This document shows positions 24,899-52,651 of a DNA stretch of 64,000 bases, piece after piece (the stretch's first letter is position 1; the number at the start of each line of letters is the position of its first letter). The notes under the pieces were generated by a model. The model was given only the letters and a program-made list of their open reading frames with translations. It was not told where the DNA came from and did not search any database. Source of the DNA: Paraspadella gotoi (Eukaryota; Animalia; Chaetognatha); contig CM119266.1 of NCBI GenBank assembly GCA_051294375.1, forward strand, positions 9,680,538-9,744,537. The letters run 5' to 3'. A program made the position numbers and the translations under genes.

Positions 24899-27800
24899 AT
24901 GGCTTCCAGGCAATCGTCCGCCGATGCCTCCGTCGGACGATCCTCTCGATCGACCCACGTCTCCTCCCAAACGGGAGGAAGCAAATCTGCTCGAGGTTCC
25001 CGCACGACTTCCGCGACTCAAAGGACCATCTCCTCCTCCGCCGTCGGCTCCTCCCAAAGAAGCGCCTCCTCCTCCAACACCGGACCTTCCATCTCCTCGT
25101 CGCAGCAACGAACCCAAAGCACGGGCGCTCTCAAAATTCCTGAGGAGAGGCTGACGGGATTCGGCTACGACAGCTTCGGCTACGAGGGGAATCGCCCACC
25201 GAAGAAGGAGAGCCGCTTCGGCCAGTTTAGGCGGAGTTTTGGCAAGGGAAAGAAAAAGAGCCGGCCCGAGACGGGCTCCGCCAAAAATTTGGCCGATTCC
25301 TCGGAGGCCCTCATGAAGGGATGGCTTTACAAGCAGGACAGCAAGGGCTTGCACCTGTGGAAGAGACGGTGGTTCGTCTTGCGCGAGAACGAACTGTTCT
25401 ACTTCAAGAGTCCCAAGGACGACTCGGCCCTGGGAAGCGTTAAACTCAACGAGGAGCAGAGGATCGCGCCGACGGATGACAACCTGGCGAAGAAGTATTC
25501 CTTCAAGATCGAGCAACAAGGATCGAGGTCATACGTGGTCGCCGCGGACACGAAAGAGTTGTTGACCAACTGGATGAACGCCGTCAGCCTCTCCGCGCTT
25601 CATCTCAGTCCGGAGTTGATCAAACAGGCTCTCCAACAACTGCAACCCTCTCGCGCCCCGGCGAAAAACGAGGAAACTATGGTCAAAACGACGGCGGCGT
25701 TTGATGAGTCCGCTACTTATTCAGTCCAGGCGGCCCAGTCAGCCAAATCCGTTTCGACGACTTCCAAGCAGATTGCCGCCAAGCAGGTTTCTTCCAAGCA
25801 GGTTGCTGCGAAACAAGTTGCTGCTAAGGCCTCCAAATCGCAGTCGGGCCCCCTCGCCAAAAGCTCAGCGAGGGAGAAGGCCTTGTCTCGAGCCATGTCG
25901 CAAGCGGAGGAAGAGGCTGAGGCAGAAGCTGAGATTGAACAGGAAGTCGTCGCCAACGCAGCCGCCGCCGCGAAACAGGCCGTCAACGTCACGGTCAACG
26001 TCGTGGGCCTGGCGGAGAACGGCGTCGAAGCCGACGACGACGAAACCGACGTGAAACAAATTTCTAGCTCTACCGACGTCTCCGAAGCCTCCGAAGATGA
26101 GATGAGCGAGGCGGAAAGCTCCCTCTCTTCCGACATGGAAGAGGCGGATTTTGGGAGAGGCAAGGCGAGCAACCTTCAATCGGCCAAGAAGATAGAAACC
26201 AAGAAAAAGGCTGTTGTCAAAGCGAGCGATAGTTTCTTTGGCAACTTGGTCCAAGAAGTAAATCAAGAGACGACCATCAACAGAACGGAGAACATTACTC
26301 GAAACGAAAATATAAACATTAATCGCAACTACACCGAAAATGTAACCAAGAATGAAAATTACTCACTGAATGAAACCTTAGCGCTGAAAGGAAATTACTC
26401 GGACAAGAAAGACGAGAATGTTGGCCTGAAATCTTCTTTTGATTTTGGCAAGCTCCTCGGCGGCACCTCCGAAAGTTCTCTCTCATCTATTCAAGCCATT
26501 GAAAACAATAATACTCCGGGTGCCGCAGTAATGCAGTCTTTCGTCCCCAACGGCACTCAAGTGGCGCAAAGTTTTATTCCTCCTGTCGCTCCCACAGCTC
26601 AAAATCTCGTTTCCTCCGGCGCTCTTGCGGCGCAGAATTTTAACCCCTCCGGCGCTCTTGCGGCGCAGAATTTTAACCCCTCCGGCGCTCCAGTGGCTCA
26701 GAATTTCATTGCCTCGGGCGCTTCCGGTGGGCAAGCTTTAAATCCCTCTGCCGCACCTGTCGTCCCAACCTTTGTTCCTTCCGTGGCGCCGCTTTCTGTC
26801 GCCTCATCGGCTTACGTTCAACAGCAACATGGAGCGGGCGTTTCCGATTTTCAAAGCCCCCAAGTCAGCGGTCGCGCCGGTGAGGTATTCGGCAATCTCT
26901 TGGATTGGCAGAATCGTACCTTGCAAAGGCCGCAGTCCACGGTGCCCGCCGCCCACACGGTCGGTAGAACGCGTTACCAAAGCTCCGGCGATCCGTACGC
27001 CACCGAACGGCGACTAAAGGAGAAAAACTATCGCGCTCAAAGCGTCGGTCGAGAGTTGGACGACGCGCCGGGCCTCTTCAAACGAACGCAGTCGATGAGG
27101 AGTTTGAAGGCGTGGTACGACAATCAGAAGAGCGGCTTACGTAGTAGAGAGGAGTCTCCGGTGGGGTTAGACGATTATGAGCAGCCACAGCAGGCGGTTA
27201 TCATGGATCTCGACCGGAACGATCGACTCTTTGTCAACCCCTCCACCGCCACCGTTTTGAGGTCAAAGAGTAGGCAGGGCAATCAGGCCAGCGGAACTAT
27301 GCTGCCGGCGAGACCCGCAACGGCCATGGGAAATTACGCCGTTGCCACTCTTCCTCGAGATCAATTGATGTTGCAGAAAAGTTATATGATGCAGCTTTAC
27401 GAACAACAACAGATGCAGCACTTTCTCAGACAGCAGCAATTAGCTCGACAACAACAGCAGCAACAACAGCAGCAGCAACAGCAGCAGCTTTTTTATCAGC
27501 AGCAACAGCAGTCGTTGATTCTTCAGAAGCAAATTCAACAGCAGCAGCAACAAATTTTGAAGGAACAAGAAATATTGAAGCAAAGAAAGGAGAAGGAAAA
27601 AGAGAAGGAAAAGGAGAAGGCGAAAAAAAGAAAGGGACAAGAGTCAGCCCAGCAGCGACAAATCATCGAGGAGGAAATGAATTCTCAACTCAGCAAAACC
27701 GTCATCAACGAATCCGTCGTCGTCAACGGCGACGATCCTAAAGTCAAAAGAGTCTTCGTTCGTCGCGCCAAAAAAGAGCCGAAGAAAGCGCCGCCGCCAG

Positions 27801-30034
27801 CCCCTGCCTCCGCTCCGCCTCCACTCCCGGCTCCGGAAAAACGCGAGTTTTCGATGCAAACCATCACGGATATCGGAATTCAGACGGAGCAAAAGGATTC
27901 GCCCCCGCCGCAGCGAACCTTCTCCGAAACGGTCATTATTCAGCCTCCCGCTCATCCTCCACCTCATATCATCCAAACCGTCATCGGACCTCCTTATCCA
28001 AGCCTCGAGGATGAGGAGAGCTCGGACGAAGAGTGGGAAGTTTTGGTCAGTTCGAATCAAGCATCCTGGAATCTCGTCGCCAAGGAGACGCTGCCGTCGA
28101 GCATGATTCGCTCCGCGTCTTTGTCGAATCTCGAGGAACTTATCAAGGATCAACTCTCGGAAGAGACTAGAAAAGTGTTGGAAGATGCGGAGGAGATTCG
28201 ATTCTCCGAGGAGGTCGTCCAGACGGTCTTAACCAAAACCGCAGAGGACACGACGACGACCACTTCCAAGAAATCCGTCACCATGACGATGCCGGGCGAC
28301 GAATTGGACGACGTCGAGATCGAAGACGCCGATGTCGATCCGGAAGAGTTGCGTCGATTCTCGACGGGCATCTCAGCCCTCGTCGCCGGAGCAGGAAGCG
28401 ACGAGGAAATCTCTAGATCTTCCGTTGTTGCCAAATTCACCGGAGAGCCTCTCCAGGAAGTTCATTTTTCCAGCTACGAGACGCCAGAAGGAAGGACGGA
28501 CCTCACCTCCACTTCCTTTCGTCAGGATCACGCGACGACGACGGACGAATCCTTTGCTTATGATTTCGCCTCCAGAAACGAAGCCTTGGCCGGATTTCAA
28601 CACCAGCTGCAGTTGATGCAGCAGGAATTCGGCGACGCTGGAGAAACGGTGACCGACGCAGGAACGAGTTACGCGTCGGCCTCCGGAGCCAGAGTCAACG
28701 TCGATCAGCGCACGACCAACATTCGCAGCGGCCTTGCAATTAACGAGGCGCCGGCGCCCGTCAACGCGTTGTTGACGAAGGACGGCGTCGAATTTGAGGC
28801 AACCGGCTCCAACTACACCAAAGCATTTGTAGATTCCATCGACGAAGAGGTCTCTCTAAACCGAGAACTGTCCGGCTCGTACTCTGCACTGCAGGATTTT
28901 CACATTGAAACGATGAAGCGACGGCTGAGCACCAAGGCGCCGGAAAAGGAACAATCGCCTGACGGAGACTGGCTCCAGAAAAAGGGAATTTTAAGGAAAC
29001 GCCCATCCTTTTCGGAGCAAATGGGCGGGGACGAGGAAAGAATCTCATCGGGGTTATCCGCCGAACCGGCGCATACTCCATCTACAAAGAGCAGCTCCAT
29101 CGTCGTTCTCGCCAACTCCCCGGCCACCGAGAGACGGCTGAGGTCGGAAACGTCGGCTCTCGAGGTCTCCCTCGATTCTCCGCCAACTAAGCACTTTTCC
29201 ACGCACGTGCACAAAACTATCTCCTCCCCAACGCCGCGCATCACCGTCGAAGTCGATCCCGTCACTTCGACCACCGCGCCCACCACCGTGTTGACGACGA
29301 AGGTGGGCGCTAGCGAGGCGAACAACAACGACGTTCCACCGACGGACGACGAGCCTCCCGCCGCCGGCTTGCCCCCTTTGGCGAGCGACATCGAAAAAGT
29401 TCGCAAAAAAATATCGTCCGTGAAATTCGCCGACGCTCCGACGGGGGGCGTCAACAAAAACGCTAGCGCCATCGGCCGGAAACTGATCACCTTGAAAAGG
29501 GAGACGGAGGCGAAACAAACGACCGCCGGCTACTTTACTCGTCGCTTGCAGCAGGAAGAACAGACGCTGGCAAATTACAAGGCCCAAGGGTTTAGCGAGT
29601 CGCAGATTGAAGCCCAGACTCTGAACGTTAGCAAATTGCGCGAGAAGGTGGACGAGATCAACGTGGGCGTCGAAAAAGGCAAGAGCGCCATCGCGGAGAT
29701 GGAGGAAGAGTGGAACAAGGTCAAGCCGACGGGATTCGACGACGTCCAGATGTCGTCCTCATCGAAGACTTCTGCTGGAAAAGCGGAATCGCCGGAAGAC
29801 GCGACCGGTGACCAAACCGGCGCCGCCAAAGAATCGTCGGCAGCGACGGTCCAGCGAGAGGCAATGAAATCCGTTCTCTCCACCATCACGTCGCAGTTCT
29901 CGGCTCGAGAGGAAGACTTTGACAAGCTGCGGCGCGAGGAGGAAGAGATCAAAGCGTTGCTTGCATCGAGGATGAGAGGGATCGATCTGGAGATCGATCA
30001 ACTTGAAGGAGCTCAGGATGCCGAGTATGATTGA
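24899..30034 (+). CDS. Large intronless PH-domain protein (PLEKHA5/6/7-like PH) with low-complexity middle, polyQ and C-terminal coiled coil, 1711 aa
   Basis: MKGWLYKQDSKGLHLWKRRWFVL...FYFK...LGSVKL...YSFKI...WMNAVS; continuous 5.1 kb ORF. Confidence 0.85.
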   Translation: MASRQSSADASVGRSSRSTHVSSQTGGSKSARGSRTTSATQRTISSSAVGSSQRSASSSNTGPSISSSQQRTQSTGALKIPEERLTGFGYDSFGYEGNRPPKKESRFGQFRRSFGKGKKKSRPETGSAKNLADSSEALMKGWLYKQDSKGLHLWKRRWFVLRENELFYFKSPKDDSALGSVKLNEEQRIAPTDDNLAKKYSFKIEQQGSRSYVVAADTKELLTNWMNAVSLSALHLSPELIKQALQQLQPSRAPAKNEETMVKTTAAFDESATYSVQAAQSAKSVSTTSKQIAAKQVSSKQVAAKQVAAKASKSQSGPLAKSSAREKALSRAMSQAEEEAEAEAEIEQEVVANAAAAAKQAVNVTVNVVGLAENGVEADDDETDVKQISSSTDVSEASEDEMSEAESSLSSDMEEADFGRGKASNLQSAKKIETKKKAVVKASDSFFGNLVQEVNQETTINRTENITRNENININRNYTENVTKNENYSLNETLALKGNYSDKKDENVGLKSSFDFGKLLGGTSESSLSSIQAIENNNTPGAAVMQSFVPNGTQVAQSFIPPVAPTAQNLVSSGALAAQNFNPSGALAAQNFNPSGAPVAQNFIASGASGGQALNPSAAPVVPTFVPSVAPLSVASSAYVQQQHGAGVSDFQSPQVSGRAGEVFGNLLDWQNRTLQRPQSTVPAAHTVGRTRYQSSGDPYATERRLKEKNYRAQSVGRELDDAPGLFKRTQSMRSLKAWYDNQKSGLRSREESPVGLDDYEQPQQAVIMDLDRNDRLFVNPSTATVLRSKSRQGNQASGTMLPARPATAMGNYAVATLPRDQLMLQKSYMMQLYEQQQMQHFLRQQQLARQQQQQQQQQQQQQLFYQQQQQSLILQKQIQQQQQQILKEQEILKQRKEKEKEKEKEKAKKRKGQESAQQRQIIEEEMNSQLSKTVINESVVVNGDDPKVKRVFVRRAKKEPKKAPPPAPASAPPPLPAPEKREFSMQTITDIGIQTEQKDSPPPQRTFSETVIIQPPAHPPPHIIQTVIGPPYPSLEDEESSDEEWEVLVSSNQASWNLVAKETLPSSMIRSASLSNLEELIKDQLSEETRKVLEDAEEIRFSEEVVQTVLTKTAEDTTTTTSKKSVTMTMPGDELDDVEIEDADVDPEELRRFSTGISALVAGAGSDEEISRSSVVAKFTGEPLQEVHFSSYETPEGRTDLTSTSFRQDHATTTDESFAYDFASRNEALAGFQHQLQLMQQEFGDAGETVTDAGTSYASASGARVNVDQRTTNIRSGLAINEAPAPVNALLTKDGVEFEATGSNYTKAFVDSIDEEVSLNRELSGSYSALQDFHIETMKRRLSTKAPEKEQSPDGDWLQKKGILRKRPSFSEQMGGDEERISSGLSAEPAHTPSTKSSSIVVLANSPATERRLRSETSALEVSLDSPPTKHFSTHVHKTISSPTPRITVEVDPVTSTTAPTTVLTTKVGASEANNNDVPPTDDEPPAAGLPPLASDIEKVRKKISSVKFADAPTGGVNKNASAIGRKLITLKRETEAKQTTAGYFTRRLQQEEQTLANYKAQGFSESQIEAQTLNVSKLREKVDEINVGVEKGKSAIAEMEEEWNKVKPTGFDDVQMSSSSKTSAGKAESPEDATGDQTGAAKESSAATVQREAMKSVLSTITSQFSAREEDFDKLRREEEEIKALLASRMRGIDLEIDQLEGAQDAEYD
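26612..26725 (+). repeat. 33-bp coding tandem repeat (SGALAAQNFNP), about 3 copies with degenerate flanks
   Basis: ccggcgctcttgcggcgcagaattttaaccc repeated directly. Confidence 0.8.
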
Positions 30035-37690: not shown

Positions 37691-38401
37691 AAAAAGGGTT
37701 TCCTAATAGTTATAAAAAACAAAAAGCGCATCCCATATACTCAAGATATTTTCACCGTTGATTCGATATCTCCTTTCAACTCAGGTTTTCCTATCATTTT
37801 TCATACGTGCACGTCAAAACATGATAGTTTGATAACAAAAGAAATTGGAAAATGATCTCCTATTTTTTTTCAATTCCCAAAGCTTTTTTACATTACGTTC
37901 CCCTGAATAATCTTAGTTTTGTACCGTTGCACATAATAAATTTATTCAAATTGTTAGTAAATCGTAGTTTAGACACGACTTACGACTCCTTCAAAAAACA
38001 CTTTCATTTCTTATGCTACAAAGGTGATGTTTTAGTAGTTTTAGTTTCGTTCGTTGTTTATATCTTTCTGGTTCTTTGCGTCCAGGAGGTTCTATACAAA
38101 TCAAATTTTGTATTATGATTTTTGTATTAGTATTGGATCATGACCACGTTATTTATTTGGCCATATTTGACTACAGCACTCATTTTGTGATCACGATTTT
38201 ATTTAGAAACGAAATTGAATGAGACTGGCTTTTTTTGGGGGGGGGTGAGCATGGTGAAAAAATTAAATATGTAACACACTTCGCTTAAACTGTCTTCACT
38301 TGCGATTCTAGTCAAATCTATTGTTGCTTTAAATGGGCCAAAAATTTGTATTTTCCAATCCAGGAATATAATTTTCAAAAATGTCTTTACCAACTTCAAG
38401 A

Positions 38402-38900
38402 ATGATGTTAAAACTCACATATTTGTCGATAATTGGGGTTCTGTGCCTCGACCGTTTGGTTCTGGGAGTGATGGTTGGGGGCGCTAATAATTTAAATCTC
38501 ACAACGGATCATGATGCGCGGAATATTTTTGAGGGCGTCATTCAACCCGCCTGTGACAGTATAAATACGCCGGTTCACATGAAATTATTAAAAGTAACGG
38601 GAGCTACTTTGCAGGTCGGTATCCAATTCAAAACATATTTTTGTCGCGTTACCCGGTTACCCCTTTATATATCAAGTTGTATTGCAGATTGTACAGGGTG
38701 AACTCTACAAATTCGAATTTGTGATGGGAGCTACCAATTGTTTGAAAGATGTGGCAAGCGACGAAGCCTGTCACATCTTGACCGAACCACCACCGTCGTC
38801 GCCAAATTACTCTTGTCACGTCGAACTTTGGCTGCGATCGTGGTTGAATTACCCGGAGAAGGAATCATCCCAAATTGATTGTCAACCAATACAGTCATGA
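38402..38900 (+). CDS. Secreted cystatin-family protease inhibitor; exons 38402-38614, 38688-38900
   Basis: Signal peptide, VGG, QIVQG (QxVxG) across the splice junction, TNC...C...C, W-x-x-SW in place of the PW loop. Confidence 0.85.
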
Positions 38901-39817
38901 AGGGTTCTTTTTTCTTTTTTGTAGTGGATTGGTTTTTATTTGGATTTTGAGTTCATACTCTTTTTCTATCCACTCTAGTCAGTAGACCATAGTATCATAT
39001 CGGAATAAATTATTTGAACTACCTCCGACATGTTTTGATGTCATAATCCACCGTTTTTGAAACTTTATTATGGTTGGATTTCATTGAAATTAATTTAATG
39101 TTTTAAACTATGAGTTTATACTAATTATTTAACTGTAAAACGTCAATGTCAGAACATAAAAACAAGACTTTAAATGACTTGATGTAATGTTTTAAATTTT
39201 ACATGATCATCGAGAACTAAAGAAGATAAATGGTTGTTAACTATCAAAGGGAAAATGAAAATTATACGAAAAAAATATCAGACCAAGTACAGCAACGCAT
39301 AATTATAATACTACATCTAAAATGTAAATGTTACAAAAAGTAACTATGAGAAAAACGCCGTATTTGTATCACAGTATTACGTGACGAATCTACCAGTTGT
39401 GAAGCGACTTACTTCTATTACAACGTCACAACTCTTCTCTCTTTCCTTCATTTTATTATTACTATTTTCGTCTTCTACAGTTGATTCTATTCTTTACAAG
39501 GTACTGTCAGCCTTCATTACATTGGCGATGGTCTACGGGTTTTGAAGTGAAATCATCTTTTCTGTTTATAAGTCATTTTTGTTTATAAATCATTTTTAAT
39601 CTTTCTACTATCTACGATTCTACATATACATAAACTGTGACTTCTTATTTTGTTTGCATTTGGATTGGATTTATTTTGCCCAGATAATGTTAACTTCCGC
39701 TATGCCATGGACACGCGATAACCCGTACACTAGGACCGTTTTCCAGACGGTCCGTATCTTAAATAGAAGATAAGGCTGACCATATTTTAGACTCTCAGGA
39801 AACGACTCGATTCCAAT

Positions 39818-40450
39818 ATGCCGGTTGTCGCGTACAAGCCGCGCATGAAGACTCGTTTGATCGAGTCGGAAAAAGCGGCCAAAAGTCGTGGTATCGATCT
39901 GTCCGATAGGCAGTTAGGTTGGTGCCTCATTTTCGGCGTCGGGGGCCCCGTCGTCATGGTCGCCGGGGCTCTGTATCTCATCGTCCTCAGCAAGATGGGC
40001 CGCCTCGTGCTCTCGACCAAATCGGAGACGGACGTGCCCGGGTTGGAGGTCGGAGTCGGAATAGCGATGCTGTCTTTGGGGGCCTTTTCCGGCATCGCCG
40101 GGGGCTTCTTCTACTGCGAAACCATGAAGACGAGAAGGACGAAGCTCGAGAGGGAAAAGACGAAGGAGCGCCGTTCGTCCCGACTCAAACTGGCCGTCAA
40201 CCCGATGCAGACTATCGAGGAATCCTCCGAGCTGGGCGACGTGGAGACCTTTCCTCGCCCGGGAGGTTCCGACGGCTCTGGTAGGAAGTCGAAGAACAGG
40301 AGAAGATCCTCGATCGAAGACTCCCAGTCGGAATTGCACACGTATCCATTTTCCAGCATGGAAACAATCAGCACTTTGCATGGCGAATCCGAAATTCCTC
40401 CCAATTATTCTTCGTTGTTTCCAATATTATCTGAAACAGAAAAAGACTAA
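39818..40450 (+). CDS. Uncharacterised two-transmembrane protein with disordered cytoplasmic tail
   Basis: Two hydrophobic segments (GWCLIFGVGGPVVMVAGALYLIVL; VGVGIAMLSLGAFSGIAGGFFYC); PPNY (PPxY) near the C-terminus; GC-rich coding-like sequence. Confidence 0.72.
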   Translation: MPVVAYKPRMKTRLIESEKAAKSRGIDLSDRQLGWCLIFGVGGPVVMVAGALYLIVLSKMGRLVLSTKSETDVPGLEVGVGIAMLSLGAFSGIAGGFFYCETMKTRRTKLEREKTKERRSSRLKLAVNPMQTIEESSELGDVETFPRPGGSDGSGRKSKNRRRSSIEDSQSELHTYPFSSMETISTLHGESEIPPNYSSLFPILSETEKD

Positions 40451-40707
40451 ACGGTGATTTTTATTAACTTGGCATCCATTGTATTAATTCCAGTATTTTT
40501 ACTTATATTGCTTATTTCTTATCGACGTTGTTTTCGTTTATATTATTTTGCACCTTTTTACATGAACGATCTCATTTTTGATTTATTTTCCTACGCAAGA
40601 TTACAAGCATTTTTGTATATTTGCATCCAATTCCTACAAAAACAAATGTATAATTTACCCTTTGTAGTTGTTACCCTTTATTAGATTTAAATCGGAAAGC
40701 AGGCGTC

Positions 40708-41583
40708 ATGTGCCTCGTTTCCGCGTTACCTACCGAGATTTGGTGTAAAATTCTCGGATACGTCACTAACGTTCGCGATCTACATCACTTTTCCCTCACA
40801 TGTCGTCGGGCGCACGAACACGTGTCCGGTCATTCACACTGGCGCCCTTTCTCGACAGCGTATGCCGCTCTGACGCGCGTCGTGCCTGACGACGCCTCTG
40901 GGCGCTCCGTCGTGTTCGAGCGCGAGGATCTCGAGCTGCGCTTAGTCGACGGCGAAGGGCAAATGAACAAGCTGACCGCCATGATCTGCGGTGCCGCCAG
41001 AGCCAACGTTGATGCCGCCGAAGACGTCGCCAAGCTCTGCAAATTGTGGGACTCGGAACGCCTTGTCAACGTGGCCAAATCTTCCGCCGACTACCCACGG
41101 AAACACTTTCGACGGCAGCTAATGAAGCGATGCAAGCGGGACTACCGCCTCTTCGAGATTTCTAAGCACCTCGTCGGAAAGAAGGAACTATATGAACATT
41201 ACGCCAATCTAGTCTTCATTGCGGCGCTATACAAGCAACGGTTTTGTTCCTCCGATCTCGTTCACGCCATTCTGACTTCGCTACTTTCCTCGACGGAGGA
41301 GGATCGTTGGTGCTGCGCCTGCCGCATTCTTGTCCTGGCCGGCCACGCCCTCGACTCGGAGCGAACCGCGTCGCGAGTCAAAATGGACGGTTACTTTAGA
41401 ATCCTGAAGTTGACTCTAAGGACGCGGACGCGGTTCTCTTCACGACTCACCTTCATGATCAAGGAGGTCGTTGACAGACGCAAGAACGGTTGGGACAGTC
41501 GAGCGGAAAGATACTTTCAGGCCGTCGAGTGTCCGAAAAGAAAGGTTTTATGGAAAAGCGCTGGAAATTTTACTTTGCTTTGA
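40708..41583 (+). CDS. F-box protein fused to an eIF4G-type MIF4G domain, single exon
   Basis: F-box LPTEIWCKILGYV...DL...SLTCRR; MIF4G blocks FRRQLMKRC, ANLVFIAALYK, CRILVLAGHALD, KMDGYF, SSRLTFMIKEVVDRRKNGW. Confidence 0.82.
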   Translation: MCLVSALPTEIWCKILGYVTNVRDLHHFSLTCRRAHEHVSGHSHWRPFSTAYAALTRVVPDDASGRSVVFEREDLELRLVDGEGQMNKLTAMICGAARANVDAAEDVAKLCKLWDSERLVNVAKSSADYPRKHFRRQLMKRCKRDYRLFEISKHLVGKKELYEHYANLVFIAALYKQRFCSSDLVHAILTSLLSSTEEDRWCCACRILVLAGHALDSERTASRVKMDGYFRILKLTLRTRTRFSSRLTFMIKEVVDRRKNGWDSRAERYFQAVECPKRKVLWKSAGNFTLL

Positions 41584-41777
41584 TTCTGAATCTATAACTT
41601 ACCTAGTGATATTTTTGGCGCAATTTGAGGGCGTAGGCGTCTGAAAAACGGCCAACCCATAACCAGTAGAAATTCGCGGCATTTTTCTTCCTAGTCAGTT
41701 TTAATTTTACTTTTTCATACGCTCTTTTAATTATATTAACATGATGCTCACGAAACGTTCCGGTCTAGTTTTTTTTC

Positions 41778-41808
<31 letters not shown>

Positions 41809-41852
41809 TACATTGTTTTGTTTTTCGATCCGTAAAAGATGCGCGGCGGTCG

Positions 41853-44800
41853 ATGATGGCTTCCACCTGGCGAATACTGATTATATTGCTGTGGTGCGCG
41901 TGCGCCCAACTCCTCGGCCTCTACTTGTTCTCCAAAGGATTTTTACTCAATCGAGTTGAGATACACAATGTCAGTTCGTGTGTCTCCGATGATTCAGCGC
42001 CTTGCGCGCGGAGACCGCAGTTTCGTCGCCTCATCGTCATCGTCGTCGACGCGCTTCGATACGATTTCGCCACCAGCGACTCGACGCTCAAAAACCCTAA
42101 GCCGTTTCAAAACAAAATGCCGGCGTTCGAGCGCCTGCAGACGCTTTACCCCGACTCGACGAAACTCATGGAGTTCGTCGCGGATCCACCGACGACCACC
42201 ATGCAGCGCCTCAAGGGTCTCACCACCGGAAGCTTGCCCACTTTCGTCGACATCGGCGCCAATTTTGACGGATACCGAGTGACGGAAGACAATCTGCTTG
42301 CACAGCTCTACGCCTCAGGAAAATCGGTCGTCTTCGCGGGCGACGACACTTGGACTAATCTCTTTCCCAGTCATTTCCTTCGACAATACCCTTATCCATC
42401 CTTCAACGTCCGGGATCTACACACCGTGGACGAAGGCGTTCGCCGCCATATTCTCCCGGAGATGGAGCGCGACGACTGGACCGTGCTCGTCGGCCACATG
42501 CTCGGCGTCGATCACTGCGGCCATCGATATGGACCCGACCATCCAGAAATGGGCTCCAAGTTGAAGGAGACGAACGAATTCATCGAGCGAGTCGCCGAGC
42601 GGATGGAGAACGACACCCTCTTGATTGTGTTGGGCGATCACGGCATGACCTCTTTCGGCGATCACGGTGGCGACTCGGACAACGAACTCTCGGCGGCGCT
42701 GTTTGTCCACGGTCGTAAGCCTTTCGTCGATCATTCGCGAGACGTTTCGCGCGTTCCTCAAATCGATCTCGTTCCGACTCTCTCGTTATTGATGGGAACC
42801 CCTGTCCCTTTCTCTAATCTGGGCAAACCGATTCTCAGTCTCTTCCCATCTCTCGATGATCAACTTTTCGCCGTCGACGCTACTCTCCGTCAAGTCGAGA
42901 GATACCTCCGCATTTACGCCGGCGTCTCCAATGACATTCCGATCGAAGACTCGAGACTTTTATCGAAACTCTACGAAGACTTGAGCTCCGTTTCCGATCG
43001 GAATCGACTCGATCTAGCTACTCGTTACTTGGAGACGGTGCGGGAAGTCTGCGAAAAGATTTGGGCTAAATTCAACGTAACCTTCATCGTTCTCGGCCTT
43101 TTCGTAATTTTTCTCTCCATCGTCGTCGTCGTCACTCTCTTCAGCGACACGCGAATCTTCGTCGTCGACGACTACTTTCAAAGATTGTGCTACATTTTCG
43201 CCATTTCCACAATCGTGGGCGTCTTAGAACTCATTGTGCCGAGGCTCGTGGTGTCCCCGGTTCCGGTCACCGAGGGAATCGTCTCATTTACCGGCGCCAT
43301 CCTCGGCGTCGTCCTCGTCGCCAAGAGAGCCTACGTGGATGACGAAGAGCGGGGCGCCGCCAAAGCGTGGCACCGTCTCCGTCGTCCCTCGATCGGAGGC
43401 GTTGCGGCGACGGTCGCGATCGGCTTCTGGTGCGCCTCCGCCTTTTCCAACTCTTTCGTCGTCGGTGAAGATCGCGTCGTCGCTTTCGTCTTCAACTCGC
43501 TGCTCTGGTTTGTCGTCGTGCATTCGATCACCAAACGAGGGAAAGATCCGACAACGCCGCAGACGCAGAACAGCGGAAAATCGAAGGCGCCGCGGCAGAA
43601 TCTCGGCGACTGGATTCTGCACTGGAAGACTCTCCTGGTGCTGGCGACGTTGGCGGTCTCCTGCTTGGTAGCGTTGTCGCGCTACTTGGGTCAAGCGTGT
43701 CGCGAGGAGCAGTTTTGGTGCGACTCGTCCTGGTTTTTGGAACCTCTCTCGTCGTTTCAAAGAGGAAAACAATTAGGAGCGGGACTGAACATTCGGTGAG
43801 TTGAGGCTAATTTTCTTAGTCACTTTTAGTAAATTATAATTTAAAATCAAATTTAAATTAAAAATTCGTTTCTATGTTTAAAAATCATCTAAGTATTTAA
43901 ATTAAATTTAAAATAAATCAAAATTAAATTAAATTTAGTTACCATTAAAGCCCAATAAAAGAATTACTTTTGCCATTGAATGCCTTATTTTAACAGTTAC
44001 TTCGGCTCCGTCTTCGTTCTCGTCGGCACAGTTTACTGCTTTCAAAAACTTCTTCGACACGACGGAAATCTCAGCGGCGAGAGCGTTCCTGTTTTGACGA
44101 CCAAGTTCTTCACTCCTCTCCTCGTCGTCTTCCTCTCCCTTCACTGGGCATCGCACGAAAAGCTCCCGGCCTGGCAACAGGCGTTCATGCCTCGAGCCGT
44201 TTACGTTCTAGTCGGGGCGCTGCTCCTCGTCTTCGCCTGGAATCCGCTGCTGCTTTATTTTGTTCACTTTCCTAGTCCCTTCGACTGCGAGAACACTCGG
44301 CTAAACCTCGGCTACGGTTCCGCCGAGGAACTCGTCCGCCTCGCCTACCGTCGCATCAAAACCAATTGGCGGGAGCATCTTAAGTCGTCAACGAGCAACG
44401 GCGACGCGATGGCGGGAACGAAGCCGCGCGACGTTCCGCCTCCTCACGCATTCGGTCTCGCTACAGCCTACTCGTCTTCAATCATCGTGGTCTCGATCGC
44501 TCTCTTCCTCTTAATCTCAATGGTCTTGGGGGACGGCCTGGTCTTCGCTTTGATATGCTACCTGGGAGTGTCGGCCTTGTGGCTGGAGATCTATTCCTCG
44601 ACGTTGTTCGCGCGACCTGACGCTTCCAAGACGATGACGGGATCCACTTTCGCCGCTTACCTGCTCGTCCCCTGGTGGGCCGTCGTTGGCTGGGGTCTGC
44701 TCGTCTCCGTCTTCTACTTTTATACCGGCCATCAATCGTCCATCCCTAACATCCCGTGGACGGCGGCTTTTCATGGTGTCAACGTCGATCATGCCCCAAG

Positions 44801-45248
44801 AGTCATCGTCGCCGCTCTCGTCTCTCTTAACCTCTTCGCGTCAGACGTGCTCGGCGCTCTCTCGCTACCCCTGCTCATCCTTTGGCCGTACGCACGCGGC
44901 GGGCTCGCCTTTACCTTTTCCAAGCGCTACTCGTCACCAGTGGCCGACCAAAAGCACGAAGTGGCCCTGCAGGACAATCAACGAGTAGTTTCGGTGGCCG
45001 TGCTCAAACTGGTACTCGCCTACCTCTTATTCGCCTCGCTGCGGCTATTCTCGGCGACGGCCGCGGCGGCGCTTCATCGGCGCCACCTCATGGTATGGAA
45101 GATCTTCGCGCCGCGTTTCGTCTTCGAGGGCGCGAGGTTCGTCGTCGTCGCCGTCTCGCTCGTCGCCAGCGTCGCCCTTTTCTTCAGGATCGACGCCCAA
45201 ATTAGGAAGTGGCTCACAAACGTTCAAGAAAGAATCGTGAAAAAATGA
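41853..45248 (+). CDS. PIGO: GPI ethanolamine phosphate transferase 3; exons 41853-43795, 43997-45248
   Basis: FSKGFLL; VDALRYDF; FVADPPTTTMQRLKGLTTGSLPTFVD; GVDHCGHRYGPDHPEM; FSNSFVV.ED; TGHQ...IPW.AAF.G; RRHLMVWKIFAPRFVFE. Confidence 0.96.
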
Positions 45249-45459: not shown

Positions 45460-47695
45460 ATGGGAAAACTCTGTTCCAAACATGCTCGCAAAGTTGAAAA
45501 AGAGTCGAACTCAATGGCGAGCAATATATCGGCCTTATACGCGAGAAAGGAGAGCAACTCGCCACCTCCCAACATGAACCAGTCCGTTTGAGATAGTTAA
45601 CTGACTTTGGACAATGGACATTTAAAATGTTTAGCTCCGTTTTTTCTTTTTTATAGCAAAAGGCGACCTGCTTTCAAGTTTCGAAAAGTAAAGTTCCTTT
45701 CAGGTGAATCGCGGTTGAACTGGATTTTTTAAACAAAAAAAGAGAACATAAATTGAATTAAAGAAATAGAATAAAAAATCTTAAAAGCATAAGGATCAAG
45801 CCATGATGATAGTCATTCATTGATGCGATGATAGTCATTCATTCATCGTAAATAAAACAAACAAATGCGTGTATGAGTGAAAGAGAGAGAGAGAGAGAGA
45901 GAGAGGCTGGACAGTTTTCCCGCCAACGAAACGCAATCAGAATTTTTAGGGAAAAAATCCACGAAAATCTCGGATGTAAATTTGGGATTTTGTATTGAGA
46001 AAAAAGCGCGGAATAAATGGCGATAATAAAAGTTTTTAGAAGGAAAAAAAGAGAGAGAGAGAGAGAGAGAGAAGCTGGACAGCCGCTGGACCGCCGCTGG
46101 ACCGCCGCTGCACCGCCGCTGCAGAGCTGAACTCATTTTCCAACGAATATGAGTAGGGACGAACTCTTTTCCTTTCTATAAAAAAAATATTACAAAATAA
46201 ATATTTGGGTATAGAGCCATATAGAAAATTTTTGTACATTGAAAGTAAACTTAAAAATGCATAAATTTTCGTTTGAGCATGTTCCCATACTAAATTTTTG
46301 ATTCACCCCATTGAGAGGGGCTACCCCTATTCAGAAGAAAAAAAACTTGATAAAGCTAAACTCTTTTCAATAATAATGATCCAAAAATTATAATCCCTAT
46401 TAACAAAATATATAGTTGAAAATACTCAGTTAACGACTATGATATTTTTGACTTCCAAATATTTTTTTTCCCTCATTTTTAAAAATTTTAATCTTGAATG
46501 AAATTTTTGATTGTTCTTTTTTTAGGAAGAAACCAGACCGAGGTCAAATTTTATATTTGCATATTTAATTAATTTATAAATAGTTATCACAACTCAAATA
46601 ATTATTTTTTAAAAAAAAGATAAAAATGATTAAATATATACACTAAAAATATTTATAATTTAATAATAGTATAAATTATCAGAATAACAAAAAAAGTAAT
46701 GTTTAATTTGACTATATCTCTCTTATCAACTCCTATTTTAGATATAATTTGCCAATAGTGGGCCAACCGGTTCAAAGTTACAATAATAAATAAATACAAA
46801 TTTATTTTTTTTAAATGTAATGCATATTGTTCGCCGAAAGTGCTGCATATATAATAAGTCACATTAGCTGATTTACATGTGACAATGCATGTCAATATAA
46901 GTTATTCTTCACTTTTTTTAAAATGTATCCACGAAAATCTCGGATTTAAATTTGGGATTTTGTATTGAGAAAATAAGTTTTTGAGAATAAAAGTTTTTAG
47001 AAAAAAAAACATAATCATAATTTTTCAAAAAAAGAACGATCACGCAAGAGATCGTAAAGAGAGAAAGAGACAGAAAGAGAGAGAAAGAGAGACAAAGCTG
47101 GACAGCTGCTTGAAGGCCGCTGTACAGTCAGTGCAGAAACTGAACTCGTTTTTTCTGAAATAAAAGAATAAAAGAAATAAAAGAAAGGCAAAAAATGTTA
47201 TAATGGTTTACAATTGGAAATTTTTACAATTTTTTCCAATCGCAGCTTGTAAAAGATTTTATTTTTATTTGTATTAAAATTAAGATATAGCTTCTCATTA
47301 AAAAGTTATTTTGAGTTCCCATTTTTATTAGAGATTTAAAAAAAAATTTTTGAATTTCATCTTCAATATTATATACTGCAATATGTAAATTAGATTAAAG
47401 CATTTCTATATACTAATTTGGATATGATAATGAGTACTATAATCTCATTTGCATATTGCAGTAAATCATAATGAAGTGGAAATTCAAACAAAAAATACTT
47501 AAATCCAAATGTAATAAGAAAATATCAAAGCTATTTCAAGATGAGAAGCCATATCTAAATTTTTAACTTACTATGAATGCACACTTTTGTAAAACTTTAT
47601 CATAATTCATAATAATTTTTATTTTAAAAAAAACGGTAAGTCACAGCCAAACCTATAAAAGCGTAGTAGTTTTTATTTAAAAACAGCGTAACGGC

Positions 47696-51400: not shown

Positions 51401-52651
51401 TCGCCTTGGCCAACTTCGCTCACCGATGCAATCTCAACAAACCGGAAATCGTGGAACCTTTTAGGTTTGGTGTGATGTTTTGTTGATTGGTGTATTTACT
51501 TTTTAACTTAAAACTTAAACCGAAACAGCGACGACTCCCACTCGATTGTCATGCAAGACTCCCGACACATCCTTCAAGAAGCTTTCGTGGAAGAGACCTA
51601 CATCGCCAACGATTTCTTCAGCGGAGGAGATGCAAACAAGATCAAGATTCTTACCGGACCCAACGCCTCGGGAAAGAGCGTGTATTTGTGTCAAGTACGA
51701 TCAATTTATCTTATCAAATGCGGGCTTTATAGGATGCGTGATTATTTAAACAGCCAGTCATATCCATGATCCTCATGACTGGTTGATTTACTGACATAAT
51801 CGTACTTTTAGGTAGCATTGGTGGTCTACTTGGCACAAGTTGGTTCGTTCGTGCCCGCAACGCGTGCGCGACTTTCGATCGTCGATCGTATTTTCACTCG
51901 AATTAATTCGGAAGAGAGCGTCAGCGCCTGCACGTCCTCGTGGGGCTGCGATCTGGGACAAGTCGCCGAAATGATCAACGTAAGCAACGAAATGCAGTCT
52001 CTGCTCTTTATTTGATGACAACCTTCAGTTATTTCCAAACTCTAGGAAGCCACGCCCACTTCCCTCGTCCTCCTCGACGAGTTTGGCAAAGGCACCGACG
52101 CAGTCAGCGGATCTTCCCTCCTCGCCGCGGTCGTCAACCGATGGAGTCGCCGCGACAACGGCGCTTCTCCCCACATTATCGTCGCCACTCATTTTCACGA
52201 GTTGACGCGCCTCACGGAAGACGGGACGGTCGGACTCTACCTCGCCAACGTGGAACGAATCACGTTTTTGACGATGAGTTTCGTCAGCGAGGATTCCGGG
52301 CATGAAGACTCCGCCGCGGCGCCTCCCGCGGCCGTGGACGCTCCGACGAAACCGGGCACCCGCCTGACCTTTCTCTACCGCGTCGTCGAAGGTTGTCATC
52401 GATTCTCCCACGCACTGCAGATCGCCGAGTCGATTCCGCTCGGGGACGCTATCATCGCGCGAGCGAGGGAGGCTCTGACGGCGATAACAGACCCTGACGG
52501 AGGAGAAGATTTCCTGCCTTTGGAGAGCGAATCGGAGAAGAAGAAGAGGATGAAGGATCAGAGAATCTTAGAAGAAATCGCAAACAGGGTCATCGACGAG
52601 AAGGCGGTGGAAGATTTGAGGAAAATAGTGGCAGAGCTGGACAAATTGTGA
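48434..52651 (+). CDS. MSH5: Meiotic MutS homolog 5, multi-exon
   Basis: TLDALRVF...HPAS; LRYWFLQPS...RLDAVAFF; IKILTGPNASGKSVYLCQVAL; GSFVPA; DRIFTRINSEESVS; SLVLLDEFGKGT (MSH5-type); ATHFHEL; FLYRV.EG. Confidence 0.92.

What the first reader, a model, noticed from the sequence alone, without database searches (positions are those of the whole stretch)
40708..41583. F-box fused to an eIF4G-like MIF4G domain: possible SCF adaptor or decoy for translation initiation factors
Seen: N-terminal F-box, then blocks collinear with the eIF4G middle domain as I recall it: FRRQLMKRC ~ FRKLLLNRC; ANLVFIAALYK ~ GNIKFIGELFK; CRILVLAGHALD ~ CRLLTTIGKDLD; KMDGYF ~ RMDQYF; SSRLTFMIKEVVDRRKNGW ~ SSRIRFMLQDVLDLRGSNW. 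The gene is intronless. Known: this MIF4G binds eIF4A; F-boxes bind SKP1. I know of no characterised F-box+MIF4G protein. Inference: a chimeric, possibly retro-derived gene that could recruit eIF4A or other initiation factors to SCF ubiquitin ligase.
Basis: partly seen in the sequence, partly recalled or inferred. Interest (0 to 1): 0.8.

Follow-up and report, generated by a model that had tools for sequence, protein, structure and literature searches.

The report
Arrow-worm F-box fused to eIF4G domain
An expressed gene, likely from an arrow worm, joins an F-box (the motif that plugs adaptors into SCF ubiquitin ligases) directly to a copy of the core domain of the translation scaffold eIF4G that has lost most residues eIF4G uses to grip the helicase eIF4A, so it likely tags some other partner for ubiquitination rather than eIF4A itself.

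Summary
The fusion is real. ORF 40708-41583 (291 aa) has a Pfam F-box (5-46) and an eIF4G-type MIF4G domain, both above curated cut-offs. It is transcribed without an intron. One full-length relative with the same architecture exists (P0002, 50% identity, unnamed source); 0 of the other 149 listed hits carry an F-box. A chaetognath-type spliced leader on the next gene marks the host as a likely arrow worm and the gene as likely operonic. Best reading: a lineage-restricted SCF adaptor whose captured MIF4G was repurposed; canonical eIF4A capture is unlikely. SKP1 binding and the substrate are untested. Retro-origin is not supported, because neighbours are intron-poor too. I found no description in print. 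The scan had not noted this architecture, but had noted analogous TRIM/RING-eIF4G fusions in other genomes.

The parts
40708..41583 (+). Single-exon gene, 291 aa: F-box + eIF4G-type MIF4G + conserved C-terminal tail
   Evidence: RNA contig 40731-41763 unspliced; same start and end as P0002
40720..40845 (+). F-box motif, residues 5-46 (LPxEIWxxIL ... DL ... W)
   Evidence: Pfam 32.9 bits; 19 of 42 residues identical in P0002, which also scores F-box-like 31.4 bits
40846..40944 (+). Residues 47-79: remodelled first HEAT repeat, joined to the F-box with no linker; NKLT absent; new shared motif DDxSGRSxVF
   Evidence: predicted helix 46-58, only a short helix 72-75 where helix 1b would be; 17 of 33 identical in P0002; homology to eIF4G helix 1a weak by sequence
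40945..41493 (+). Residues 80-262: MIF4G HEAT repeats 2-5; F249 (= human F978) and H186 (= H918) kept, E659 and K837 equivalents lost
   Evidence: hhalign 99.7% over 80-267; VIA Z 21.6, rmsd 3.2, 209 aligned to 8huj_B
41494..41580 (+). Residues 263-291: tail, the best conserved segment (AVECPKRK[VI]LW), basic and NLS-like (likeness recalled, untested)
   Evidence: 19 of 29 identical in P0002; low pLDDT from 278 on
40701..40702 (+). AG 5 nt before the ATG, behind a T-rich spacer: candidate trans-splice acceptor
   Evidence: sequence only; no leader seen here in the runs laid
39818..40450 (+). Upstream co-oriented gene, 210 aa, two hydrophobic segments, no Pfam hit at cut-off; stop 257 nt before the F-box ATG
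   Evidence: RNA contig 39452-40660; one X4 contig spans both genes
41837..41838 (+). Trans-splice acceptor of the downstream PIGO-like gene
   Evidence: 23-nt loose end before 41839 in X4, 21 of 23 letters as chaetognath SL2.0; X9 contig starts at 41839; its 13-nt core is not in the window
41853..45248 (+). Downstream PIGO-like GPI ethanolamine-phosphate transferase, one intron seen (43794-43996)
   Evidence: Pfam Phosphodiest above cut-off, PIGO_PIGG below it (the name PIGO is my reading); joint

Best explanation
The gene encodes an F-box joined without a linker to an eIF4G-derived MIF4G domain that has lost most documented eIF4A contacts; it likely works as a lineage-restricted SCF substrate adaptor, in which the F-box would bind SKP1-CUL1 and the repurposed MIF4G would hold a protein other than canonically docked eIF4A, likely an mRNP or translation factor, for ubiquitination. 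Shown: architecture, transcription, conservation in a second sequence, loss of the contact residues. Predicted: the fold. Inferred: an old duplicate of the eIF4G middle domain was fused to an F-box; the F-box took the place of the W579 arm at the N-terminal end of the HEAT arc, where the eIF4A C-terminal lobe docks; that end was rebuilt and is now conserved in a new form; the distal repeats 3-5 and the tail form the substrate side; the gene is co-transcribed with housekeeping neighbours and resolved by trans-splicing.
For: Both domains pass Pfam cut-offs in both proteins. P0001 and P0002 are collinear end to end, 144 identical of 292 columns, 1.07-1.3 changes per site apart, with the F-box 45%, the rebuilt repeat 52% and the tail 66% identical: long retention, not decay. 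GC3 0.646 is like most neighbours (0.65-0.72 for 5 of 8 other ORFs, 0.48-0.61 for 3) against flanks of 0.29-0.34 GC. Among 87 eIF4G domains N (74 of 87), K (73), T (71) of NKLT, E of EP (72) and R of RF (73) are conserved; P0001/P0002 have T/T, R/Q, V/T, N/H and T/A there. Yeast N615 and K837 contact eIF4A and DAP5 N86 is critical for binding (PMC10746786, passages); charge reversal of E659 abolishes binding (PMC4138323, passages); W579 forms site 3 (PMC9177959, section 12). Of columns at least 80% conserved, both proteins keep 2 of 12 in 46-107 but 19 of 31 in 108-262 (Fisher p 0.016, boundary chosen after seeing the data). Nine residues shared by the pair and rare in eIF4G (T56 V58 D61 D62 S64 G65 R66 V69 F70) sit at the old site. 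F-box proteins give SCF its specificity through a second domain (PMC8395177, passages), and F-box genes are known to capture foreign domains (PMC12062965, passages).
Against: SKP1 binding was not tested, and the F-box part of the model is only moderately confident (block pLDDT 53-79). No substrate is identified; 'mRNP or translation factor' rests on ancestry alone. F249/F247 (= F978; its role as eIF4A N-lobe contact is recalled) and M250 are kept. The register of 46-79 against helix 1a is weak (51 and 31 of 2000 shuffles as good, and the best P0002 window is in another register). The placing of yeast N615, T618 and E659 on the NKLT and EP columns is recalled, not read from a structure. Only two sequences are known, and the source of P0002 is unnamed. 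The 87 reference domains were picked by likeness to the query and include degenerate paralogues.
Confidence: 0.5

Rival explanations
1. One reading: an SCF adaptor that still catches eIF4A (or another DEAD-box helicase such as eIF4A3, DDX6 or DDX19) through the MIF4G and ubiquitinates it, damping translation.
For: The fold matches eIF4G HEAT-1 best, including the eIF4A-bound structures 8huj and 2vso (Z 21.6, 21.0). F249/M250 are kept. CNOT1 binds DDX6 in the same mode while sharing only two of the eIF4G contact residues (PMC4138323), so helicase binding can survive heavy change.
Against: N615, K616, E659 and K837 equivalents are changed in both proteins and T618 in one; E659, one of the two residues that CNOT1 keeps, is lost; the W579 arm is replaced by the F-box.
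Confidence: 0.2
2. Antiviral bait: the MIF4G mimics the eIF4G surface that viral proteins or IRES RNAs grab, no longer binds eIF4A (so it does not disturb host translation), and hands the viral protein to SCF.
For: Norovirus VPg binds eIF4G HEAT-1 on a patch centred on H918, away from the eIF4A site (PMC4703368, passages); H918 is kept as H186/H185. Of 87 domains, the only 2 that also lose N, E and R together lie in fish MIF4G + TRIM coiled-coil proteins P0019 and P0030. The domain is basic (pI 9.6 and 9.0 against a median 7.7).
Against: H918 is conserved in 86% of eIF4G domains anyway, and E914/D919/L912 are not kept (S/D, A/N, C/F). No second copy in the window and no second contig at 80% or more on the gene in the runs laid; no sequence differences in 5 of 5 runs of organism A that were laid, although contigs drop variants and several may be the source of the window. 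The housekeeping-operon setting does not suggest an inducible immune gene. The RING-bearing P0038 and B-box-bearing P0051 keep NKLT and EP.
Confidence: 0.15
3. A non-proteolytic regulator: the F-box serves as an anchor (to SKP1 without CUL1, or to another protein) and the basic MIF4G binds RNA or initiation complexes, for instance in the handling of trans-spliced or germline mRNAs.
For: [quoted passage not shown] C. elegans FOG-2, an F-box protein acting in translational control, is a recalled precedent.
Against: F812, the other aromatic named for IRES binding, is not kept. The F-box has the canonical pattern and no sign of degeneration. No expression pattern was seen.
Confidence: 0.12
4. A decaying processed copy, an assembly chimera or a contaminant.
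For: Intronless; very long branch; amino-acid make-up of P0001 differs from the alignment; trees do not place it firmly with animal eIF4G.
Against: Continuous identical cover in 4 of 4 runs laid and in RNA; an intact collinear relative at 50%; GC3 like most neighbours; an animal eIF4G origin is not rejected (AU p 0.28 and 0.79).
Confidence: 0.03

Closest known systems
eIF4G1/eIF4G3 middle domain (MIF4G/HEAT-1; PDB 1hu3, 8huj, yeast 2vso)
   Same: Same fold (Z 21.6, rmsd 3.2 over 209 residues) and best sequence match (E 3.8e-20 for the pair profile, against 2.7e-7 DAP5, 9e-5 PAIP1, 4.5e-4 SLIP1); core residues and F978 kept.
   Different: No eIF4E-binding, MA3 or W2 domain; W579 arm replaced by an F-box; NKLT, E659, K837 changed; helix 1b predicted largely absent; the long helical insert between repeats 3a and 3b is about 20 residues shorter.
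FBXO-class SCF substrate adaptors; F-box domain capture (Caenorhabditis F-box-HTH A2 family, PMC12062965)
   Same: N-terminal F-box plus one other domain that is neither WD40 nor LRR; lineage-restricted fusion.
   Different: The captured domain is a core translation-factor domain, not a transposon domain; apparently one copy, not an expanded family (only the window and laid runs could be checked); no F-box + MIF4G protein found in print.
TRIM/RING-eIF4G fusions in database gene models (P0038 Branchiostoma; P0019 Dallia; P0030 Oncorhynchus; P0051 Pseudochaenichthys)
   Same: An E3-ligase-type module joined to eIF4G parts; P0019 and P0030 also lose the N, E and R contacts.
   Different: RING/B-box/coiled-coil rather than F-box; recent, still close to eIF4G; unverified gene models, uncharacterised.
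Stand-alone MIF4G proteins (PAIP1, SLIP1/MIF4GD, giant-virus eIF4G)
   Same: Small proteins built on one MIF4G that has changed partners.
   Different: No F-box; more distant in sequence than eIF4G1/3.
SCF(betaTrCP) acting on PDCD4
   Same: SCF control of eIF4A-dependent translation (PMC8395177).
   Different: A WD40 adaptor reading a degron; no eIF4G-derived domain.

Membership tests
F-box protein (FBXO class, SCF adaptor) | N-terminal F-box motif above curated threshold | tested here: met
   32.9 bits and 31.4 bits against 24.3 in P0001 and P0002
F-box protein (FBXO class, SCF adaptor) | C-terminal domain other than WD40 or LRR | tested here: met
   MIF4G; class definition from PMC8395177
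F-box protein (FBXO class, SCF adaptor) | F-box three-helix fold | tested here: inconclusive
   helices 9-17 and 22-40 at block pLDDT 53-79; fold searches were filled by the MIF4G part
F-box protein (FBXO class, SCF adaptor) | Binds SKP1 and assembles with CUL1-RBX1 | not tested
   no SKP1 sequence was obtained (one search found none)
F-box protein (FBXO class, SCF adaptor) | Ubiquitinates a substrate | not testable with these tools
   needs experiment
MIF4G domain, eIF4G1/3 type | HEAT-repeat MIF4G fold and profile match | tested here: met
   repeat 1 is diverged
MIF4G domain, eIF4G1/3 type | Descent from animal eIF4G1/3 by phylogeny | tested here: inconclusive
   long stem (1.72 to the midpoint root); AU p 0.278 (LG+G4) and 0.788 (C20) for grouping with the 18-row clade that holds the named animal eIF4Gs; p 0.465 for grouping with P0035/P0036; no DAP5, CTIF or PAIP1 rows were knowingly in the tree
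eIF4G scaffold (eIF4F subunit) | eIF4A-docking residues N615/K616/T618, E659, K837 and W579 arm | tested here: not met
   F838/F978 alone is kept in both
eIF4G scaffold (eIF4F subunit) | eIF4E-binding motif, MA3 and W2 domains | tested here: not met
   no such Pfam hit at E up to 1; protein ends 29 residues after the MIF4G
Retrogene | Intron loss relative to an identified intron-bearing parent, in a genome where genes otherwise keep introns | tested here: inconclusive
   intronless, but neighbours are intron-poor and no parent could be sought (no genome held)
Chaetognath operon gene | Co-oriented neighbours with short spacers, at least one with a spliced leader | tested here: met
   upstream RNA contig ends 40660, about 40 nt before the candidate acceptor; leader at 41839 on the next gene; criterion from PMC12460157
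Chaetognath operon gene | Spliced leader on this gene's own mRNA | tested here: inconclusive
   no loose end at 40703 among those shown; only contigs were available and 67 loose ends were not shown

The most novel reading that the evidence does not exclude
Arrow worms built a new ubiquitin-ligase adaptor from the heart of eIF4G: it shed eIF4A binding so as to leave normal translation alone, and uses the remaining eIF4G surface to catch whatever else docks on eIF4G (a host initiation or mRNP factor, or a viral hijacker). With the fish and amphioxus TRIM-eIF4G fusions it would show that E3 ligases have repeatedly captured eIF4G parts and in some cases erased the same helicase contacts.
Probability: 0.3. 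Interest if true: 0.75.

Novelty: new variant of a known kind. Interest (0 to 1): 0.5.

Why it matters
It is an apparently undescribed domain architecture that links the SCF ubiquitin system to a core translation-factor fold, in a phylum known for heavy gene turnover and genome-wide trans-splicing. It gives a clean natural experiment in how a MIF4G domain changes partner: the helicase-docking end is rebuilt while the rest is kept. If its substrate is an eIF4G-binding protein, it would be a new route of translational control or defence by targeted degradation. Its reach is limited by being known from two sequences.

Tried and rejected
Complex prediction of the whole protein with a mite eIF4A (P0258, residues 25-410) gave 'no answer' (ipSAE 0.00 and 0.01, mark 0.34, alignments not used, controls not folded): no evidence either way. 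No whole genome is held, so parent genes, paralogues, host SKP1 and host eIF4A could not be sought. The ESM Atlas gave no result for P0001 or P0002. The word-indexed search with P0001 found nothing, not even P0002, which shows its limits; with the pair profile it found only P0002 among 7096 candidates of 158-510 aa; longer or shorter forms were not searched there. A pattern scan for a SKP1 motif in viral contigs found 0. NCBIfam: 0 families. Folding with 2 sequences gave pLDDT 52. No run was on record as RNA; X9 and X4 were judged RNA from introns skipped and a leader. X11 and X12 (other organisms) laid nothing on the gene at 80%: no evidence, since a 50% protein relative would not lay. X10 laid one exact 297-nt piece upstream at depth 3: not used. 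No polymorphism for pN/pS; dN/dS could not be computed, as the DNA of P0002 was not available. Trees did not resolve the donor; the pull towards non-animal rows is read as long-branch effect, and horizontal transfer is neither shown nor excluded. A TTTTCAG acceptor scan showed no excess (16 against 23 expected). Schutz 2008, Virgili 2013 and Dominguez 2001 were not held; I cite them only through other papers.

Full report
OBSERVATION. The ORF at 40708-41583 (+) encodes 291 aa. Pfam finds F-box-like at 5-46 (32.9 bits, cut-off 24.3) and MIF4G at 86-260 (44.9 bits, cut-off 30.8). An AlphaFold2 model built on 36 sequences (the pair plus 34 of the eIF4G-type hits) has mean pLDDT 83.4 and aligns to eIF4G HEAT-1 at Z 21.6, rmsd 3.2, 209 residues, model range 41-263 (Foldseek agrees). 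The model leans on those eIF4G rows; with the pair alone pLDDT was 52.

EXPRESSION AND SETTING. Run X9 skips 7 GT..AG introns of neighbouring genes and holds one unspliced contig over 40731-41763 with no differences, so the gene is transcribed and intronless. Run X4 carries a 23-nt loose end directly behind the AG at 41837-38, in front of the next gene; 21 of its 23 letters match the 3' end of chaetognath leader SL2.0 (PMC2481426, passages and Table 3), and its core is not encoded in the window. The gene lies 257 nt after a co-oriented 210-aa gene and 269 nt before a PIGO-like ATG; the upstream RNA contig ends at 40660, and one X4 contig spans the upstream gene and this one (a contig across two genes does not prove one transcript). 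In a chaetognath, about half the genes are trans-spliced and 18% lie in operons (PMC12460157, passages). Operon membership is therefore likely; a leader on this gene's own mRNA was not seen.

DISTRIBUTION. A search of 1.84 billion cluster representatives gave 595 hits at E up to 0.001, of which the best 150 were listed. One, P0002 (289 aa, E 1.8e-84, a singleton from a 1029-nt Logan contig), matches end to end. All 150 were scanned with Pfam: 1 of 150 (P0002) has an F-box; 148 of the other 149 have MIF4G and one is a spurious bacterial Ig-repeat protein. The 445 lower hits were not seen. A word-indexed search with the pair profile returned only P0002. The organism of P0002 is not known; that it is another chaetognath is my assumption.

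SELECTION. The pair share 144 of 292 columns, the same start and the same end, and lie 1.07-1.3 changes per site apart. Identity by region: F-box 19/42, residues 47-79 17/33, repeat 2 15/37, loop 3/15, repeat 3 22/46, repeat 4 24/40, repeat 5 24/45, tail 19/29. GC3 is 0.646, like most neighbouring ORFs, against AT-rich flanks. This is the pattern of a kept gene; dN/dS could not be computed.

THE eIF4A SURFACE. eIF4G binds eIF4A at three sites, one of them the W579 arm N-terminal to the domain (PMC9177959, section 12). Yeast N615 and K837 touch the C- and N-lobes, and the N615 equivalent in DAP5 is critical (PMC10746786, passages); E659 forms a salt bridge whose reversal abolishes binding, and T618 also matters (PMC4138323, passages). 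Against 87 full-length MIF4G domains cut from 64 of the hits, the columns N, K, T of NKLT, E of EP and R of RF hold those letters in 74, 73, 71, 72 and 73 of 87 rows; P0001/P0002 read T/T, R/Q, V/T, N/H and T/A. The W579 arm is replaced by the F-box, whose last residues run straight into predicted helix 46-58. F249/F247 (human F978) remain. Of columns at least 80% conserved, both proteins keep 2 of 12 in residues 46-107 and 19 of 31 in 108-262 (p 0.016, boundary post hoc), and nine residues shared by the pair but rare in eIF4G occupy the old site. Cautions: profile methods align only from residue 80, the helix-1a register is weak, and the placing of yeast numbers on NKLT and EP is recalled; human numbers were derived from the 8huj alignment and fit all seven residue identities named in PMC4703368 for this stretch. 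In any register no NKLT motif exists in this region.

MECHANISM. Most likely an SCF adaptor (0.5): F-box to SKP1 (inferred from a canonical, conserved motif), rebuilt N-terminal end next to SKP1, distal repeats and tail as the substrate side, substrate unknown but probably not canonically docked eIF4A. Rivals: residual helicase capture (0.2; CNOT1 shows that binding can survive much change, but it keeps the E that is lost here); antiviral bait (0.15; H918 of the norovirus VPg patch is kept, and the only 2 of 87 domains that lose the same three contacts are in fish MIF4G + TRIM coiled-coil proteins; but no expansion or variation was seen); non-proteolytic RNA regulator (0.12); decaying copy or artefact (0.03).

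ORIGIN. Sequence scores point to eIF4G1/3 rather than DAP5, PAIP1 or SLIP1. Trees leave the pair on a long stem; grouping with the clade that holds the named animal eIF4Gs is not rejected (AU 0.278) and is the better tree under the mixture model (AU 0.788). Retro-origin is not diagnosable: the PIGO-like neighbour shows one intron and a 1.9-kb exon, a 1711-codon ORF and several 350-400-codon ORFs lie nearby, and the chaetognath paper found no intron deficit among duplicates.

LITERATURE. 'F-box' + 'MIF4G': 31 papers, 27 listed, none about such a fusion by title and abstract start; one was opened and the terms were unrelated (PMC3090354). Four further searches, judged from listings, gave none. 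PMC12460157 has 0 occurrences of F-box or eIF4 in its main text and 0 in its 3 readable supplements; its gene table could not be read. PMC12062965 (passages) documents F-box domain capture and does not mention MIF4G. The library lacks most subscription papers, and no InterPro architecture query was possible. The scan's own index holds no F-box-MIF4G note but two on TRIM/RING-eIF4G fusions.

VERDICT. Observation confirmed; interpretation partly supported; a new variant of a known kind (FBXO-type adaptor with an undescribed, remodelled eIF4G-derived domain); interest 0.5.

Noticed in passing
P0038, P0019, P0030, P0051 (hits): Database proteins that join TRIM parts to eIF4G parts: RING + B-box + eIF4E-binding motif + MIF4G (Branchiostoma), MIF4G repeats + TRIM coiled coil (Dallia, Oncorhynchus), B-box + coiled coil + MIF4G + MA3 (Pseudochaenichthys). 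P0019 and P0030 have lost the N, E and R eIF4A contacts, as the F-box fusion has; P0038 and P0051 keep NKLT and EP.
   Followed up: partly
P0003-P0009, P0028, P0040: Fish and plant gene models with two to five tandem MIF4G domains in one protein.
   Followed up: no
window 451-45248: Long run of + strand housekeeping genes (PIF1, ESF1, Arf, FDX-ACB protein, porin, RIMC1, C1/RA, acylphosphatase, BTB, PH, HMGL-like, cupin/JmjC, Band 7, PIGO-like), many closely spaced: likely several operons.
   Followed up: partly
window 38381-38900: Small two-exon ORF with a hydrophobic N-terminus and no Pfam hit, on the same RNA contig as the upstream Band 7 gene (intron 38608-38682 skipped in X9).
   Followed up: no
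window 45693-46000: Depth about 6000 in RNA run X9 with many back-joints at 45803-45846: a highly abundant repeat-bearing transcript or repeat family.
   Followed up: no
window 24899-30034: A 1711-codon uninterrupted ORF with one PH domain near its start and no other Pfam hit at cut-off.
   Followed up: no
window 39818-40450: 210-aa protein with two hydrophobic segments and a Ser/Arg-rich tail, no family at cut-off, transcribed.
   Followed up: no
P0035, P0036: Unnamed Logan eIF4G-like proteins with a long insertion between HEAT repeats 1 and 2; P0035 scores highest against the pair's MIF4G profile (78.5 bits against 77.3 for the next), but grouping with them is not established.
   Followed up: partly
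window 52046-52648: Reading frame with the C-terminal part of a MutS domain V; the rest of the gene was not traced.
   Followed up: no
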